Shown: positions 7 to 57,108, numbered from the stretch's first letter. The stretch: DNA of 64,000 bases from Rikenellaceae bacterium (GCA_015059845.1 SUZR01000011.1:2845-66844), one strand, 5' to 3'. Numbers and translations: made by a program. The notes: generated by a model from the sequence alone, not told the origin.

Positions 7-1473
7 CTATTCTGATTTTTGTTCTTCTTCTGAGGCTGGCTCTGGCGTGGGACGCTCCACGTCGCACACCTTTGTCAGACCACGCTCCGCAGCCAGACGC
101 TCCATCAGAGCGTAGGCCTCGTCGTAGTCGTTATGAATCTCGCCATCGAGGATGGCATTCTTTATCACCTCCTTAATCTCACCAATGGCGCTGCAAGGTT
201 GCAGGTCGTAGCACTTCATTATAATATCGCCCGTGATGGGTGGCTGGAAGTTACGCACGCGGTCGCGCTCCTCCAAATCCTTCATCTTACGGCGAACAAG
301 TTCAAAGTTGGCCAAATAACGCTTCACCTTAGCATCTATACCCGACGTAATATCGGCCTCGCACAGGGTCATCAACGCCTCCACATCGTCGCCCGCCTCG
401 AACAGCAGACGTCTTACAGCCGAATCGGTAACCATATCCTCCGAGAGGATAATCGGGCGCAGATGGAGGTAAACCAGCTTCTGCACAAACTTCATATGCT
501 CGTTCATCGGCAGCTTCAGGCGGCGGAAGATATCGCGCACCATACGCGAGCCGACAACCTCGTGCTGGTGGAAGGTCCAGCCTATTTTTCTGTCGTAGGC
601 CTTGGTCAGCGGCTTGGCAATATCGTGCAGCACGGCCGCCCAGCGAAGCCACAAATCATCGCTCTTGCGGGCCACGTTGTCCAGCACCTTGAGCGTGTGG
701 CGGAAATTATCCTTATGCGCGTGGTTACCCACTCGCTCCACACCGCACAGACGCTCCATCTCGGGGAAAATCAGCTCCAGCAGGCCCGTCATATGCAGCA
801 AATCGAAACCGATAGAGGGCACAGGCGAGAGAACTATCTTATTCAGCTCCACCATAATACGCTCCTTCGACACAATTTTTATACGTTCCTTGTTTCGCGC
901 AATGGCATCGAACGTCTCCTCCTCGATATCGAAGCCCAGCTGCGTGGCAAATCTTACGGCACGCATCATTCTCAGCGGGTCGTCCGAGAAGGTTATATCG
1001 GGGTCGCAGGGGGTGCGGATAATGCAATCCTCCAAGTCGAACATACCCTCAAACGGGTCAACCAGCTCGCCAAAACGCTCGCCATTCAGACACCACGCCA
1101 TAGCGTTGATTGTAAAGTCGCGGCGGCGCTGGTCATCCTCCAGCGTGCCCGGCTCAACCTGCGGCTTGCGCGAGTCGTGCGTATAGGACTCCTTACGCGC
1201 ACCGACGAACTCCACCTCCGTGCCGTGAGCGCGCACCATAGCCGTGCCGAAGGTCTTGAAGACCGACACCTTGCCCTTCACCTCGCGGCCCAAAGCCTCG
1301 GCTACCTCAATTCCGCTACCCACCACAACCACATCTATATCCGTAGAGGGACGACGCAGGTAGTAGTCGCGCACATATCCACCCACGACATACGCCTCCA
1401 CGCCGAGGCTATCGACAATGGCGGAAATCTTTCGGAAAACGGGGTTTTCGAGAGCTTTAATATTCTCTTCCAT
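7..1473 (-). CDS. cca: CCA tRNA nucleotidyltransferase / poly(A) polymerase family with HD domain
   Basis: VVGGYVRD..DIDV nucleotidyltransferase motif, DDQRRRDFTINA, DDPLRMMRAVRF, and LHDIAK HD motif. Confidence 0.9.
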   Translation of the reverse strand: MEENIKALENPVFRKISAIVDSLGVEAYVVGGYVRDYYLRRPSTDIDVVVVGSGIEVAEALGREVKGKVSVFKTFGTAMVRAHGTEVEFVGARKESYTHDSRKPQVEPGTLEDDQRRRDFTINAMAWCLNGERFGELVDPFEGMFDLEDCIIRTPCDPDITFSDDPLRMMRAVRFATQLGFDIEEETFDAIARNKERIKIVSKERIMVELNKIVLSPVPSIGFDLLHMTGLLELIFPEMERLCGVERVGNHAHKDNFRHTLKVLDNVARKSDDLWLRWAAVLHDIAKPLTKAYDRKIGWTFHQHEVVGSRMVRDIFRRLKLPMNEHMKFVQKLVYLHLRPIILSEDMVTDSAVRRLLFEAGDDVEALMTLCEADITSGIDAKVKRYLANFELVRRKMKDLEERDRVRNFQPPITGDIIMKCYDLQPCSAIGEIKEVIKNAILDGEIHNDYDEAYALMERLAAERGLTKVCDVERPTPEPASEEEQKSE

Positions 1474-23160: not shown

Positions 23161-23190
23161 AAGGCTGTCGCAGAGTGCGACAGCCTTTTT
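23161..23190 (+). terminator. Intrinsic terminator after asd
   Basis: 12-bp stem AAGGCTGTCGCA/TGCGACAGCCTT followed by Ts. Confidence 0.9.
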
Positions 23191-23244: not shown

Positions 23245-23276
23245 ATTGTTTATTTACGAAAAGTTTAATACTTTTG
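23245..23276 (+). promoter_or_regulatory. Promoter of candidate rod RNA 1
   Basis: ATTG at 23245-48, 20-nt spacer, exact TACTTTTG at 23269-76; predicted +1 near 23281. Confidence 0.7.
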
Positions 23277-23280
23277 TTAA

Positions 23281-23554
23281 AGTAATCGAATAGGTTACAG
23301 ACATACAGAAAGTGTTTTCGCAGTCTTTACAAGAAAATGTGGAAGTTTTCAAAGAGAGAAGGCAGACGAATAGCACTCATCTCTTGTATATGTATGGGAA
23401 CGTTGGCACGGCTTGTGTCGATGCCTCACGCTATACAGGTGTGGGGCATTGTATCGTTTATTCTCTCAAGGTCTTTCCACAACCTTCTTGTAAATAAACG
23501 GGAATCATCTCCACACTTTCTATTTATAATAATCTGCCGCATAGGAGATATTAC
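23281..23554 (+). ncRNA. Candidate rod-shaped structured RNA, copy 1 (unassigned family)
   Basis: Nested complementary blocks AGAAAGTGT/ACACTTTCT, TTTACAAGAA/TTCTTGTAAA, TGTGGAAG/TTTCCACA, GAGAGAA/TTCTCTC, AGACGA/TCGTTT; own promoter; homologous to 56770-57029. Confidence 0.75.
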
Positions 23555-23572
23555 GGCAAAACAATTATTACA

Positions 23573-24409
23573 ATGAAAAGATTAGTCATATTAGGAGTTG
23601 CGGTGTGTATGCTCGTTGCCTGCAAACAGACAAATAACATCCCTACGCACATCACCGAGGAGAATTACCTCAAGGCCGACAGCGCACTATGGGCGGAGTT
23701 TGAGCGCGACACCGAACCGATAATTGAGCAGATGGATGCCGAGCCTGAGCGCTTTGATGTCCTATATGAACTGTATAAATCTATCGAGGAGGCCACCGAT
23801 AAACGAAACTACGAACTTGCAATAGAGTATGCAGCTGTGCCGAGCGGATTAAGAAGAGTCTTTACTGTACGAAACCAGCTGAGTAAAGAGCAGATGCAAA
23901 AAACGCTCTCGGAGATTCCCGATTCAATGCAACAATCATTTTACGGCAAGCTCATCAAAGAGTATATCGAGGCCGACCAGATTGAGGAGGGAGATATGTA
24001 TCAGCCCTTTGAGTGTATGTGTGAGGATGGCCAGCCATTCGATTGGTCGCGCTTAGACGGAAAAAAGACACTATTGTGCTACGGCGGATTGGGCTGTATG
24101 GGTGATGTGGGGCGCGAGTTGTTAAAGAAGTGGAACGAGCAGTACGCGAGTAAAGATTTCCAAATCGTAATCTATGCCCCCGAAGTTGATAATTACGAGG
24201 AGCTTGTAGAGGATAAGAAGTATTGGCGCGATAATGGGGTGACAGATTACATAGCCATTGCCGATTTCTTGGGTGATGCCAGCCCCATAAGGATTATATA
24301 CAGCTCGCAGGCTAAGCCCACGTGCTTTATGATTGATAGCCAGGGTCGCGTGGTTATTAAGTCAATGGGACTTGCCCCCGAGCGTATGGAGGCCTTCTTA
24401 GCGCAATAA
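23573..24409 (+). CDS. Lipoprotein with a TlpA/thioredoxin-like domain lacking CxxC
   Basis: Lipobox LVAC; FECMCEDG..FDWSRLDGKKTLL; PTCFMIDSQGRVV; active-site region reads YGGLGCMGD. Confidence 0.7.
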   Translation: MKRLVILGVAVCMLVACKQTNNIPTHITEENYLKADSALWAEFERDTEPIIEQMDAEPERFDVLYELYKSIEEATDKRNYELAIEYAAVPSGLRRVFTVRNQLSKEQMQKTLSEIPDSMQQSFYGKLIKEYIEADQIEEGDMYQPFECMCEDGQPFDWSRLDGKKTLLCYGGLGCMGDVGRELLKKWNEQYASKDFQIVIYAPEVDNYEELVEDKKYWRDNGVTDYIAIADFLGDASPIRIIYSSQAKPTCFMIDSQGRVVIKSMGLAPERMEAFLAQ

Positions 24410-30392: not shown

Positions 30393-30464
30393 GCTGAATT
30401 AGCTCAGTGGTAGAGCACTTCACTCGTAATGAAGGGGTCCCGAGTTCAAGTCTCGGATTCAGCT
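30393..30464 (+). tRNA. tRNA-Thr(CGT), CCA not encoded
   Basis: GCTGAAT/ATTCAGC acceptor, D-arm GCTC-AGTGGTA-GAGC, anticodon arm CTTCA-CTCGTAA-TGAAG, T-arm CCGAG-TTCAAGT-CTCGG. Confidence 0.97.
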
Positions 30465-41685: not shown

Positions 41686-41887
41686 AAATATTTTAAGTTA
41701 ATAAAAGTTACGCTGTGGAGCAGAACCATAAATTAACTCAAAACATCCTTTTGCCGTAGAGCCAATGCCAACGGGGCAGCGGCGCAGTTGTTCGCCTGAG
41801 GCGGAACAAAAACTTATATTTTACGGATAAAATTAGTTTTGACTTGTCCCGTAGTCCTGCAGGTCACAAATCTTGTTTAACGCAAAA

Positions 41888-42100
41888 GGTAGGTCTTCTG
41901 ACTTGTTCCATTTGTGACGCCTTCCCAACGCCGCAGCGTCAGTGGCAAAGAGTGTCACAAACTAACTTCGTTTATCGGGCGGTGCATCAGGCATTTTCAG
42001 CCAATCGCCCCGAAGTGGAACTCACAGCAACAGGTATTGTTCCGGATTCTCACCGGATTCCCTATTATTCTCGGTGGCCGAGGGCCACACGGGAACCGTT
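41888..42100 (-). promoter_or_regulatory. Cobalamin riboswitch
   Basis: Minus strand AATAGGGAATCCGGTGAGAATCCGGAACAATACC..GCTGTGA..GCCACTG..GGGAAGG..AAGTCAGAAGACCTACC; upstream of the btu operon. Confidence 0.95.
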
Positions 42101-42109
42101 TGCTTAGTG

Positions 42110-42117
42110 CAAAGATA
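42110..42117 (-). promoter_or_regulatory. -7 box of the B12 operon
   Basis: TATCTTTG on the minus strand just upstream of the aptamer. Confidence 0.7.
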
Positions 42118-56684: not shown

Positions 56685-56769
56685 CTACATAGTAAATCAT
56701 TACGACCACAACTGCATAGAGAGCGTAACAAAGAAGATGATAATCGTTACCATAATCATCACACACTAC

Positions 56770-57029
56770 ATCGCGGCCCGAGCGATATCATTAAAACCTA
56801 AAACATAACCCATATAAACAGAAAAGTGCGAGCCTGTTTCTATCCAACGGTAGGCCTTCGACTGCCTTATGGTAGATATAACGACTCACACTTTGGCGGT
56901 ATATGTCTTTAGAACATAATACATACCAAAATGAGCGCTCGTCATTCCCTACCATAATGAGTTGTCGAAGTTCACCGTTGAGGAAGAAAAAACGCTTTCC
57001 AATAAATATGTCTGCCGCGCACTGCGACT
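56770..57029 (-). ncRNA. Candidate rod-shaped structured RNA, copy 2 (same family as 23281-23554)
   Basis: Nested blocks CAACGGT/ACCGTTG, CTTCGAC/GTCGAAG, TTATGGTAG/CTACCATAA, ATGACGA/TCGTTAT; own -7 box; four sequence blocks shared with copy 1. Confidence 0.75.
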
Positions 57030-57032
57030 ATA

Positions 57033-57040
57033 CAAAGGTA
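57033..57040 (-). promoter_or_regulatory. -7 box of candidate rod RNA 2
   Basis: TACCTTTG on the minus strand just downstream of the rplQ terminator; no clear -33 TTTG. Confidence 0.6.
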
Positions 57041-57075: not shown

Positions 57076-57108
57076 AAAAAATAAGGCCCTCCCAAAAGGG
57101 AGAGCCTT
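57076..57108 (-). terminator. Terminator of the alpha operon (after rplQ)
   Basis: Minus strand AAGGCTCTCCC-TTTT-GGGAGGGCCTT-ATTTTTT. Confidence 0.85.

What the first reader, a model, noticed from the sequence alone, without database searches (positions are those of the whole stretch)
23281..23554. Rod RNA copy 1: a ~275-nt unbranched structured RNA with its own promoter, homologous to a second locus 33 kb away
Seen: after the asd terminator there is an exact TACTTTTG box, then nested pairings: GTAAT 23282/ATTAC 23550, TAGGTTA/TAATCTG, AGAAAGTGT 23307/ACACTTTCT 23513, TTTACAAGAA 23326/TTCTTGTAAA 23485, TGTGGAAG 23338/TTTCCACA 23474, GAGAGAA 23354/TTCTCTC 23461, AGACGA/TCGTTT and CTTGTATA 23383/TATACAGG 23432. 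Four blocks are shared with 57029-56770 (-): CAGACATA, GAAAGYGTTTT, GACGA..GCRCTCAT and CRCACTTT(T)CTRTTTATA. No ORF is conserved between the copies. Inference: a multi-copy ncRNA or leader family. The U-rich bubble near +36 to +45 resembles the pRNA start region of 6S RNA, but the element is longer than typical 6S. It could instead be a regulatory 5' UTR, since an ATG follows 18 nt later.
Basis: partly seen in the sequence, partly recalled or inferred. Interest (0 to 1): 0.88.

Follow-up and report, generated by a model that had tools for sequence, protein, structure and literature searches.

The report
Two-state leader RNA in Alistipes
The flagged "rod RNA" is a real, strongly covarying ~290-nt leader RNA with its own promoter that Alistipes and related gut Bacteroidales place in front of many unrelated, mostly surface-protein genes; it can fold either as one long rod or as two hairpins ending in a terminator-like stem, so it most likely gates transcription into those genes, and it is not a 6S RNA.

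Summary
Copy 1 (window 23277-23558, +) and copy 2 (57028-56770, -) are structured RNAs, each behind a TAnnTTTG promoter box. A third copy lies elsewhere in the genome. Relatives carry up to 16 BLAST matches per genome, and about 100 further members were confirmed, mostly in Alistipes, Tidjanibacter and Rikenellaceae MAGs.

The parts in order are a 5' hairpin, single-stranded CAGACAUA, a 213-nt rod, a U-rich tract and a 3' hairpin. The 3' hairpin loop (GGAGNNN) pairs with an internal loop of the rod (NNNCUCC), and this pairing covaries clearly. The start codon lies 40-79 nt after the rod in 97 of 122 members.

The same sequences also fit a second fold: a 5'-half hairpin plus a 3'-half hairpin (GUGUGGGG:CUCCACAC) followed by 8-10 U. 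This matches the published zipper-type attenuator of plasmid pLS20 and four-segment attenuators.

No Rfam family matches. The 6S idea fails: no central bubble, many copies, each attached to an ORF.

This scan has already found the same leader superfamily in other Bacteroidales genomes. New here are the pseudoknot statistics, the Alistipes subfamily, and the divergent copy 2 lineage with its conserved 17-23-aa hydrophobic mini-ORF.

The parts
23269..23276 (+). Copy 1 promoter -7 box, TACTTTTG (Bacteroidetes TAnnTTTG type). The predicted transcription start is near 23281.
   Evidence: Read directly from the sequence. A box at the same relative place occurs in 30 of 30 first-set members and 117 of 125 of the larger set. 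The start site is inferred from the known spacing of this promoter type.
23282..23298 (+). Copy 1 5'-terminal hairpin P0: GUAAUC, loop GAAUA, GGUUAC.
   Evidence: fold. The stem sequence differs between members yet stays paired, for example GCUAUU/AAUAGC, ACCGC/GCGGU and CGUCGG/CCGGC.
23298..23305 (+). Conserved single-stranded CAGACAUA between P0 and the rod. It is a candidate recognition site for a trans factor or an RNase.
   Evidence: Nearly invariant in alignment A2. Mean unpaired probability is 0.82 in the rod ensemble.
23308..23520 (+). Copy 1 rod, the antiterminator state. Segments: A = GAAAGUGU 23308-23315; B' = GCACUCAUCUC 23373-23383; B = GUGUGGGG 23439-23446; C = CUCCACAC 23509-23516; P1 3' strand = ACACUUUC 23513-23520.
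   Evidence: MFE -84.7 kcal/mol, z = -5.5. In the family, 90.4% of cells pair against 38-48% for slid controls, and 40 pairs change on both sides. The sense strand is more stable than the antisense strand in 120 of 125 members.
23439..23528 (+). Alternative 3'-half hairpin, the terminator state. It is closed by GUGUGGGG:CUCCACAC and followed by the U-rich tract UUUCUAUUUAUA (23517-23528).
   Evidence: The 3' half alone folds this way in 106 of 106 members, mean -25 kcal/mol. The 12 nt after CUCCACAC hold 8-10 U in 120 of 125 members. The alternative fold pairs 93.3% of cells against 45-53% for slid controls.
23507..23512 (+). Pseudoknot 5' strand, AUCUCC, in the asymmetric internal loop of the rod.
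   Evidence: It pairs with 23544-23549. Covariation of this pairing across the family is shown.
23536..23557 (+). Copy 1 3' hairpin: stem GCCG 23536-23539 with CGGC 23554-23557. The loop carries GGAGAU (23544-23549), the pseudoknot 3' strand.
   Evidence: The stem sequence varies with compensation across members. Loop-loop pairing of 6 or more contiguous bp occurs in 102 of 125 members. At the three variable positions, 287 of 339 are complementary.
23573..24409 (+). Downstream gene of copy 1: a 278-aa lipoprotein with a weak, sub-threshold Redoxin-like match. Its ATG lies 52 nt after the rod.
57033..57040 (-). Copy 2 promoter box, TACCTTTG, downstream of the rplQ terminator (57087-57104).
56770..57028 (-). 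Copy 2 leader, a divergent subfamily. Landmarks: 5' hairpin about 57028-57014; CAGACAUA 57014-57007; A = GAAAGCGU 56999-56992; B = GUGUGAG 56891-56885; C = CUCGCAC 56832-56826; pseudoknot GGCUCG 56834-56829 with CGGGCC 56780-56775 in the hairpin 56786-56770.
   Evidence: Rod fold, z = -4.6. The 3'-half hairpin is -24.5 kcal/mol and is followed by UUUUCUGUUUAUAU. Homologs in L162, L192 and L216 keep both folds and the pseudoknot.
56700..56753 (-). Mini-ORF behind copy 2: MVTIIIFFVTLSMQLWS, 17 aa, hydrophobic.
   Evidence: Conserved in the three other copy-2-type loci: MVTIVIFFVALAMDVLC, MATIIIFFATLAMEIANL and MVTMVVLLATLAMNAASYALGVD.

Best explanation
Each copy is a cis-acting 5' leader RNA transcribed from its own TAnnTTTG promoter. 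It works as a two-state (zipper-type, four-segment) transcription attenuator.

State 1 is the rod. Segment A (GAAAGUGU) pairs with the 3' part of C (ACACUUUC), and B' (GCACUCAU) pairs with B (GUGUGGGG). RNA polymerase is inferred to read through the U-rich tract. The newly made 3' hairpin loop (GGAGNNN) then pairs with the internal loop NNNCUCC. This pseudoknot, together with P1, ties up all of segment C and locks the read-through mRNA in the rod form. The A/U-rich start region stays open.

State 2 has A pairing with B' in a 5'-half hairpin and B pairing with C in a 3'-half hairpin directly followed by 8-10 U. That is an intrinsic-terminator shape and would stop transcription about 50 nt before the start codon.

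In state 2 the loops of the two half-hairpins (UGUGGAAG and CUUUCCACA) are complementary. Conversion to the rod can therefore nucleate from the apex and from a loop-loop kiss.

Shown here: the structures, their covariation, the promoter box, the fixed distance to the ATG, and the multi-copy distribution. Inferred: that the U tract terminates, which state is the default, and the trigger. The trigger is probably a trans factor acting on the invariant 5' region (CAGACAUA, segment A) or kinetic control by RNA polymerase speed.
For: Rod plus pseudoknot:
- 90.4% of cells pair, against 38-48% for slid partners.
- 40 pairs change on both sides, and 193 cells do so, against 66 in shuffles (0 of 500 shuffles reach the observed value).

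Alternative fold:
- 93.3% of cells pair, against 45-53% for slid partners.
- 13 pairs change on both sides, against 5.1 in shuffles.
- Residues that are unpaired in the rod yet nearly invariant pair in this fold: the UUU of GAAAA..UUUUC, AGGU/ACCU, and CGUUUAU/AUAAACG.

Terminator-like hairpin:
- The 3' half folds as a B:C-closed hairpin in 106 of 106 members, mean -25 kcal/mol.
- It is followed by 8-10 U within 12 nt in 120 of 125 members.

Copy 2 subfamily:
- It keeps both folds with changed letters: A U6->C is compensated in B' (CAC->CGC), and B:C becomes GUGUGAG:CUCGCAC.

Pseudoknot:
- The variable triplets covary: CAA/UUG 25, CAU/AUG 8, CGG/CCG 5, CAG/CUG 5.
- Pairing of 6 or more bp occurs in 102 of 125 members.

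Leader context:
- The promoter box is present in 30 of 30 and 117 of 125 members.
- The ATG lies 40-79 nt after the rod in 97 of 122 members.
- The spacer between the 3' hairpin and the ATG has a median of 15 nt and is 74% A+U.
- Sense folds better than antisense in 120 of 125 members.

Published analogue: the zipper-type attenuator cATT of pLS20, in which a long imperfect hairpin is extended by pairing of an upstream weak stem-loop with the downstream terminator (PMC13401043).
Against:
- At equilibrium the rod is about 8-12 kcal/mol more stable than the terminator state, even for the nascent RNA ending at CUCCACAC. The terminator state therefore needs kinetic trapping or a stabilising factor.
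- The helices of the alternative fold are built mostly from near-invariant sequence, so covariation for them is modest. The structure was also derived from these same sequences (the tool's own caveat).
- A terminator hairpin enclosing about 60-70 nt is atypical, and the simple terminator scan does not report it.
- The pseudoknot forms only after the U tract has been transcribed, so it cannot influence the termination decision of its own transcript.
- The downstream genes share no function that would point to a signal.
Confidence: 0.6

Rival explanations
1. The element is a constitutively folded 5' UTR that does not switch. The rod, 5' hairpin and pseudoknot form a compact domain that stabilises the mRNA or is processed (for example by RNase III) to set expression of the attached gene.
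For: The rod is the thermodynamic ground state by 8-12 kcal/mol. The pseudoknot exists only in read-through transcripts and is under clear selection. The 5'-terminal hairpin is typical of stabilised RNAs. The start region is not occluded.
Against: This reading does not explain the near-invariance of residues unpaired in the rod that pair in the alternative fold. It does not explain the B:C complementarity followed by a U tract in 106 of 106 members. It also does not explain the compensated changes of A:B' and B:C in the copy 2 lineage.
Confidence: 0.17
2. The element is a stand-alone trans-acting small RNA. The roughly 235-nt RNA ending at the U tract would be the functional product, for example a protein sponge or a 6S-like RNA polymerase binder, and the link to the downstream ORF would be secondary.
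For: It has its own promoter, a 5' hairpin and a terminator-like 3' end, as stable sRNAs do. The core sequences are highly conserved in all copies. Copy 2 is followed only by a 17-aa ORF. Attenuator-derived RNAs can act in trans in other bacteria (for example rnTrpL; title and abstract of PMC6614838, listed).
Against: The ATG sits at a fixed distance in 97 of 122 members. The pseudoknot partner lies beyond the U tract and covaries, so the functional RNA extends into the mRNA. For 6S specifically: there is no Rfam match, no two-sided central bubble, and up to 16 BLAST matches per genome.
Confidence: 0.1
3. The element is a DNA-level feature: a palindromic mobile repeat (MITE or REP-like) or a recombination site of gene cassettes, with RNA folding incidental.
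For: It is multi-copy. It lies in front of accessory genes, and several IMG/VR contigs carry it next to Bacteroidales tyrosine integrases. The copy 2 locus is present downstream of rplQ in only 2 of 60 related metagenome loci.
Against: Many conserved G-U pairs would be C-A mismatches on the other strand, and sense folds better than antisense in 120 of 125 members. Orientation and distance to the promoter and ATG are fixed. Copies within a genome are only 70-80% identical. A covarying pseudoknot has no DNA rationale.
Confidence: 0.05

Closest known systems
Zipper-type transcriptional attenuator cATT of Bacillus subtilis plasmid pLS20 (Gonzalez-Alvarez et al., Nucleic Acids Res 2026, PMC13401043)
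   Same: The topology is the same. A long imperfect hairpin persists in both states. An upstream stem-loop and a downstream intrinsic terminator are complementary to each other, so the long stem can be extended into an antiterminator rod. In pLS20 the antiterminator is the default and the most conserved part is the upstream stem-loop. Here too the rod is the more stable state and the 5' segment is near-invariant.
   Different: No sequence relationship was seen; this was not formally tested. The phylum and the genes differ: pLS20 family attenuators precede conAn1 and conjugation operons of Gram-positive plasmids. Here the half-hairpins are much larger, comprising the whole lower rod arms. The element has its own promoter and is multi-copy in front of unrelated genes. 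It also adds a covarying pseudoknot to a hairpin beyond the U tract. Termination here is not shown experimentally.
Classical four-segment attenuators (trp/his/pyrBI leaders; protein-dependent TRAP and PyrR types). Named from general knowledge.
   Same: The logic of four segments with mutually exclusive pairings applies: 1:2 plus 3:4 (terminator) against 2:3 (antiterminator). Here A:B' plus B:C stands against B':B plus A:C.
   Different: There is no conserved leader peptide. The AUG in the 5' arm is lost in copy 2, L012, L018, L020, L030 and L031. The regulated genes show no metabolic coherence. No effector is known.
6S RNA (Rfam RF00013; 6S-Flavo RF01685)
   Same: It is a rod-like RNA of roughly similar size with its own promoter.
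   Different: There is no covariance-model match and no central bubble. It is multi-copy and fused to ORFs. The asymmetric loop is a pseudoknot partner.
The 'two-state leader RNA of gut Bacteroidales' reported earlier in this scan (AI notes e1-5173979, e1-4139932, e1-4011042, e1-5272507)
   Same: Those notes describe a promoter, a rod and a terminator-like alternative fold in front of unrelated accessory and surface genes, absent from Rfam. Short shared words link the sequences.
   Different: The present members form an Alistipes/Rikenellaceae subfamily with its own conserved blocks. The relationship to the other subfamilies was not tested here beyond the word match.

Membership tests
6S RNA (RF00013 / RF01685) | Match to the family covariance model | tested here: not met
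   cmscan found no hit at the gathering threshold or at E <= 10 on either copy. No hit was found in the whole genome. The B. thetaiotaomicron control is also missed by RF00013, so this test is weak on its own.
6S RNA (RF00013 / RF01685) | Large two-sided central bubble that mimics an open promoter | tested here: not met
   The largest one-sided unpaired run in the rod MFE is 7-9 nt in 92 of 106 members. From the folds printed, it corresponds to the asymmetric NNNNCUCC loop. That loop pairs with the 3' hairpin. The central B':B region is paired (helix 8, 92.8% of cells).
6S RNA (RF00013 / RF01685) | One or two stand-alone genes per genome | tested here: not met
   There are 3 copies in this genome and up to 16 BLAST matches in a relative. 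The ATG of an ORF lies at a fixed distance in 97 of 122 members.
6S RNA (RF00013 / RF01685) | Binds RNA polymerase holoenzyme and templates pRNA | not testable with these tools
   This needs RNA polymerase co-immunoprecipitation or small-RNA sequencing.
Zipper-type attenuator (cATT pLS20 type) | A long imperfect hairpin flanked by an upstream stem-loop and a downstream terminator hairpin that are complementary to each other, so that the stem can be extended | tested here: met
   Both folds are compatible with more than 90% of cells across 30 members. The 3'-half hairpin forms in 106 of 106 members.
Zipper-type attenuator (cATT pLS20 type) | The terminator hairpin is followed by a U tract and terminates transcription | tested here: inconclusive
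   The U tract is present, with 8-10 U in 12 nt in 120 of 125 members.
Zipper-type attenuator (cATT pLS20 type) | Located upstream of conAn1 and a conjugation operon on Gram-positive plasmids (family membership by descent) | tested here: not met
   The host is Alistipes. Downstream genes are lipoproteins and varied accessory genes. The plasmid collection gave no hit. The element works like this attenuator but is not a member of that family.
Ribosome-mediated (trp-type) attenuator | Conserved leader peptide ORF overlapping segment 1 | tested here: not met
   The only recurrent AUG (AAAAUGUGGAAG) is absent in copy 2, L012, L018, L020, L030 and L031, where the letters covary with the opposite arm instead.
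Riboswitch | Regulated genes share a pathway related to the ligand | tested here: not met
   Downstream genes include LRR_5/DUF4988 lipoproteins, an OMP beta-barrel protein, a PD-(D/E)XK nuclease, an SPFH protein, a weak Redoxin-like lipoprotein and mini-ORFs. A kinase, a DNA methyltransferase, radical-SAM proteins and others are read only from N-terminal motifs.
MITE / REP-like palindromic repeat | DNA-level palindrome in either orientation at variable distance from genes, with near-identical copies | tested here: not met
   Orientation and distance to the ATG are fixed. The promoter box is conserved. Copies are 70-80% identical. Strand-specific G-U pairs are present.

The most novel reading that the evidence does not exclude
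The leaders form a previously unknown global regulon. A single trans factor, protein or RNA, would read the invariant single-stranded CAGACAUA and segment A region, or RNA polymerase elongation speed would be sensed directly. Either would tip a kissing-loop-nucleated zipper between terminator and rod. This would co-ordinately switch dozens of horizontally acquired surface-protein and accessory gene cassettes in Alistipes and other gut Bacteroidales. It would amount to a portable conditional terminator that travels with the genes it silences.
Probability: 0.25. Interest if true: 0.85.

Novelty: new variant of a known kind. Interest (0 to 1): 0.7.

Why it matters
Alistipes and related Bacteroidales are abundant gut commensals, and almost nothing is known about their RNA-based regulation. 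A single structured leader heads many surface lipoprotein, BspA-type LRR, outer-membrane and other accessory genes. It is present at up to 16 BLAST matches per genome, and also on integrase-bearing contigs classed as viral (IMG/VR). If it works as inferred, it would be a major control layer for the variable cell surface of these bacteria.

It would also extend the recently described zipper-type attenuation mechanism to a different phylum. It offers a compact, portable switch with a clear set of testable mutations: B:C, A:B' and the pseudoknot code. The element is absent from Rfam 15, and I did not find it in the papers searched.

Tried and rejected
**Rejected readings**
- 6S RNA. There is no model match, no central bubble, and the element is multi-copy and attached to ORFs.
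- GGAG as a Shine-Dalgarno sequence. It sits more than 20 nt upstream of the ATG and covaries with the rod loop. It is a pseudoknot partner, not a ribosome-binding site.
- Leader peptide. The AUG in the 5' arm is not conserved.
- Orthogonal pseudoknot 'codes' within a genome. Rejected because copies in one genome often share the same code.
- Extra divergent copies in the own genome. Motif hits at C8, C9 and C10 turned out to be coding sequence. A loose scan for box plus ACATA returned ordinary promoters.
- Copy 2 as a housekeeping RNA conserved after rplQ. Rejected because it is present in only 2 of 60 related rplQ-downstream loci, plus one relative genome.

**Searches that found nothing**
- The nhmmer profile of the main family does not find copy 2 above shuffled controls.
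- The phage (INPHARED) and plasmid (PLSDB) collections gave no match.
- Full-text searches for the conserved words, for Alistipes structured RNAs and for Bacteroidales attenuators gave no description of the element. The held supplements of Fremin and Bhatt 2021 have no match.

- The fetch from genomes regions, so the other G020 matches could not be read.
- The genome search does not accept a DNA alignment.

Full report
**1. What is in the sequence**

Copy 1 lies between the asd terminator (23161-23187) and a lipoprotein gene (ATG at 23573). A Bacteroidetes-type -7 box, TACTTTTG, sits at 23269-23276.

The stretch 23281-23554 folds at -84.7 kcal/mol, with z = -5.5 against 200 dinucleotide shuffles. 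Copy 2 (57029-56770, minus strand) lies behind the rpoA-rplQ operon and its terminator. It has a TACCTTTG box and folds as a rod with z = -4.6.

No Rfam 15 family matches either copy, at the gathering threshold or at E <= 10.

**2. It is a large family**

- A third copy lies on another contig of the same 2.09-Mb genome. It is 75% identical to copy 1 and divergent from ftsY.
- In 23 of 24 genomes of the same genus the element is present, with up to 16 BLAST matches per genome.
- A pattern scan of one genome per species returned 119 stretches. About 100 of them are true members by an nhmmer profile.
- Those members are labelled mostly Alistipes, Tidjanibacter, Rikenella/Rikenellaceae or 'Bacteroidales bacterium', from ruminant and human gut. 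They include Alistipes montrealensis and A. senegalensis records.
- Eight of 28 IMG/VR pattern hits are real members. Several lie next to typical Bacteroidales tyrosine integrases.
- The reference phage and plasmid collections gave no hit.

**3. Anatomy from comparison** (alignment A2, 30 members, plus a 126-member set)

From 5' to 3' the parts are:
- The TAnnTTTG box, present in 30 of 30 and 117 of 125 members.
- A 5'-terminal hairpin whose sequence varies but stays paired.
- Single-stranded CAGACAUA, with unpaired probability 0.82.
- A rod of about 210 nt.
- A U-rich tract.
- A 3' hairpin with a covarying stem.
- An A/U-rich spacer, median 15 nt.
- The ATG. It lies 40-79 nt after the rod in 97 of 122 members and 50-59 nt after it in 58.

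Pair counts for the rod together with a long-range pairing:
- 90.4% of cells form standard pairs, against 38-48% when partners are slid.
- 40 pairs and 193 cells change on both sides, against 25 pairs and 66 cells in shuffles. None of 500 shuffles reach the observed values.

Many pairs are predominantly G-U. The sense strand folds better than the antisense strand in 120 of 125 members. The selection is therefore on RNA of this strand.

**4. A pseudoknot**

The asymmetric internal loop NNNCUCC, just 5' of the closing helix, pairs with GGAGNNN in the loop of the 3' hairpin.
- 102 of 125 members have 6 or more contiguous pairs. The mean is 6.8, against 4.7 for shuffled downstream sequence.
- The three variable positions covary: CAA/UUG 25, CAU/AUG 8 (plus GUG 5), CGG/CCG 5 (plus UCG 5), CAG/CUG 5 (plus UUG 7). 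In all, 287 of 339 positions are complementary.
- In copy 1 the pairing is AUCUCC (23507-23512) with GGAGAU (23544-23549). In copy 2 it is GGCUCG with CGGGCC.

Two consequences follow. The GGAG is not a Shine-Dalgarno element.

**5. A second, mutually exclusive fold**

This lead came from earlier notes of the scan. I tested it here.
- GUGUGGGG (B) is complementary to CUCCACAC (C). Both are near-invariant.
- The 3' half alone folds as a hairpin closed by B:C in 106 of 106 members, mean -25 kcal/mol.
- That hairpin is followed by 8-10 U within 12 nt in 120 of 125 members.
- The 5' half folds on itself: A with B', UUUUCG with CGAA, GUCCU with AGGAC, GAAAA with UUUUC.
- This two-hairpin structure pairs 93.3% of cells, against 45-53% for slid partners. 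Thirteen pairs change on both sides, against 5.1 in shuffles.
- It explains why residues unpaired in the rod (the UUU of UUUUC; AGGU/ACCU; CGUUUAU/AUAAACG) are nearly invariant, or vary only as A to G.
- The copy 2 lineage keeps both folds with different letters. A U6->C is compensated in B' (CAC->CGC). B:C becomes GUGUGAG:CUCGCAC, at -24.5 and -26.4 kcal/mol in the two members folded, followed by a U-rich tail.
- In the two-hairpin state the loops UGUGGAAG and CUUUCCACA face each other and are complementary. They form covarying helix 4 of the rod. This suggests a kissing-loop route into the rod.

**6. Energetics**

The rod is more stable than the terminator state by about 12 kcal/mol for the complete rod region. 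It is still more stable by about 8 kcal/mol when only the RNA up to CUCCACAC is available. The rod is therefore the ground state. The terminator state needs kinetic trapping or a factor. In the published pLS20 zipper-type attenuator the antiterminator is also the default, and an unknown factor is proposed to stabilise the upstream stem-loop.

**7. What it controls**

The downstream genes are heterogeneous. Pfam hits are:
- BspA-type LRR_5 plus DUF4988 lipoproteins.
- An outer-membrane beta-barrel protein.
- A PD-(D/E)XK nuclease.
- An SPFH/GYF protein.
- A weak, sub-threshold Redoxin-like match in the lipoprotein behind copy 1.

Others, read only from their N-terminal sequences, look like radical-SAM proteins, a Ser/Thr kinase, a DNA methyltransferase, an acyltransferase, zinc-ribbon proteins and recurring mini-ORFs.

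By a crude heuristic, 60% have signal-peptide-like N-termini, against 33% of background ORFs. Lipobox-like N-termini are 47% against 16%. Background start codons are imprecise and relatives are not independent, so this enrichment is only indicative. No common pathway points to a ligand.

**8. Copy 2**

- It is not found by the main-family nhmmer profile above shuffled controls. Close copy-2 relatives score borderline, E about 1e-3.
- The composite CAGACATA-N0-12-GAAAG[CT]GTTT occurs only at the three copies in the genome. By my estimate the chance expectation is well below 0.01.
- Copy 2 shares every architectural part with the main family.
- It is present after rplQ in only 2 of 60 related metagenome loci and in one relative genome. 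It is a lineage-specific gain, not a housekeeping RNA.
- All four loci keep a hydrophobic mini-ORF at the usual distance: MVTIIIFFVTLSMQLWS, MVTIVIFFVALAMDVLC, MATIIIFFATLAMEIANL and MVTMVVLLATLAMNAASYALGVD.

**9. Comparison with known systems**

- 6S RNA fails on model match, central bubble and copy number.
- A ribosome-mediated attenuator fails because no leader peptide is conserved.
- Riboswitch membership is not supported by gene content.
- A MITE-like reading fails on strand-specific G-U pairs, fixed orientation and the pseudoknot.
- The mechanism matches the zipper-type attenuator of pLS20 (PMC13401043) and four-segment attenuators. The element is not a member of those families by host, gene context or sequence.
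- I found no description in the papers searched.
- Earlier agents of this scan reported the same leader superfamily in other Bacteroidales genomes. Those notes are unchecked AI notes. I re-derived the two-state reading on this subfamily myself.

**10. Limits**

The look-up of sequencing runs, the genome search and the fetch from genomes regions were closed. There is therefore no transcript evidence, no family-wide tally and no co-occurrence test for a trans factor. Termination, the default state and the trigger are inferences.

**Verdict**

This is a real, uncatalogued cis-regulatory leader RNA family. It is most likely a two-state zipper-type attenuator with a locking pseudoknot (confidence about 0.6). 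It is not a 6S RNA.

Noticed in passing
window 56700-56753 (-); L162, L192, L216: A 17-23-aa very hydrophobic mini-ORF, M(V/A)T(I/M)(I/V)(I/V)(F/L)(F/L)(V/A)(T/A)L(S/A)M..., is conserved behind all four copy-2-type leaders. In size and composition it resembles small membrane peptides such as type I toxins; that comparison is from memory and was not tested.
   Followed up: partly
L002 (own genome C7) about 1329-1442 (-); also L115, L052, L085, L074, L061: A recurring 37-52-aa ORF family with the motif Y(I/L)APE(I/V)E(V/I)...VE(K/Q/R)GF follows the leader in at least six loci. One is the third copy in this genome, where a BspA-like LRR lipoprotein gene comes next. Its function is unknown.
   Followed up: no
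L166, L178, L185 (IMG/VR contigs): Leader-plus-lipoprotein cassettes lie next to one or two Bacteroidales-type tyrosine integrases (N-terminus MARSTFKVLFYLKRQ...). This suggests the cassettes sit in integrase-associated variable or mobile regions.
   Followed up: partly
L079, L089, L092, L129, L146: True family members occur on contigs of MAGs labelled Sphingobacterium, Eggerthellaceae, Bulleidia, Faecalimonas and Christensenella. Binning contamination by Alistipes-like contigs is more likely than real presence in those taxa.
   Followed up: no
window 41871-42115 (-) and 30393-30464 (+): A cobalamin riboswitch (RF00174, 74.5 bits) and a tRNA are the only Rfam matches at the gathering threshold in the window.
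   Followed up: no
one search hit list (relatives G003, G006, G011, G014, G015, G016 and others): Many BLAST hits cover only the 3' half of the query (about positions 160-290). Where such loci were fetched (L030, L031, L032), at least L030 and L031 showed the full architecture with a diverged 5' half. True copy numbers are therefore probably higher than counts of full-length BLAST hits.
   Followed up: partly
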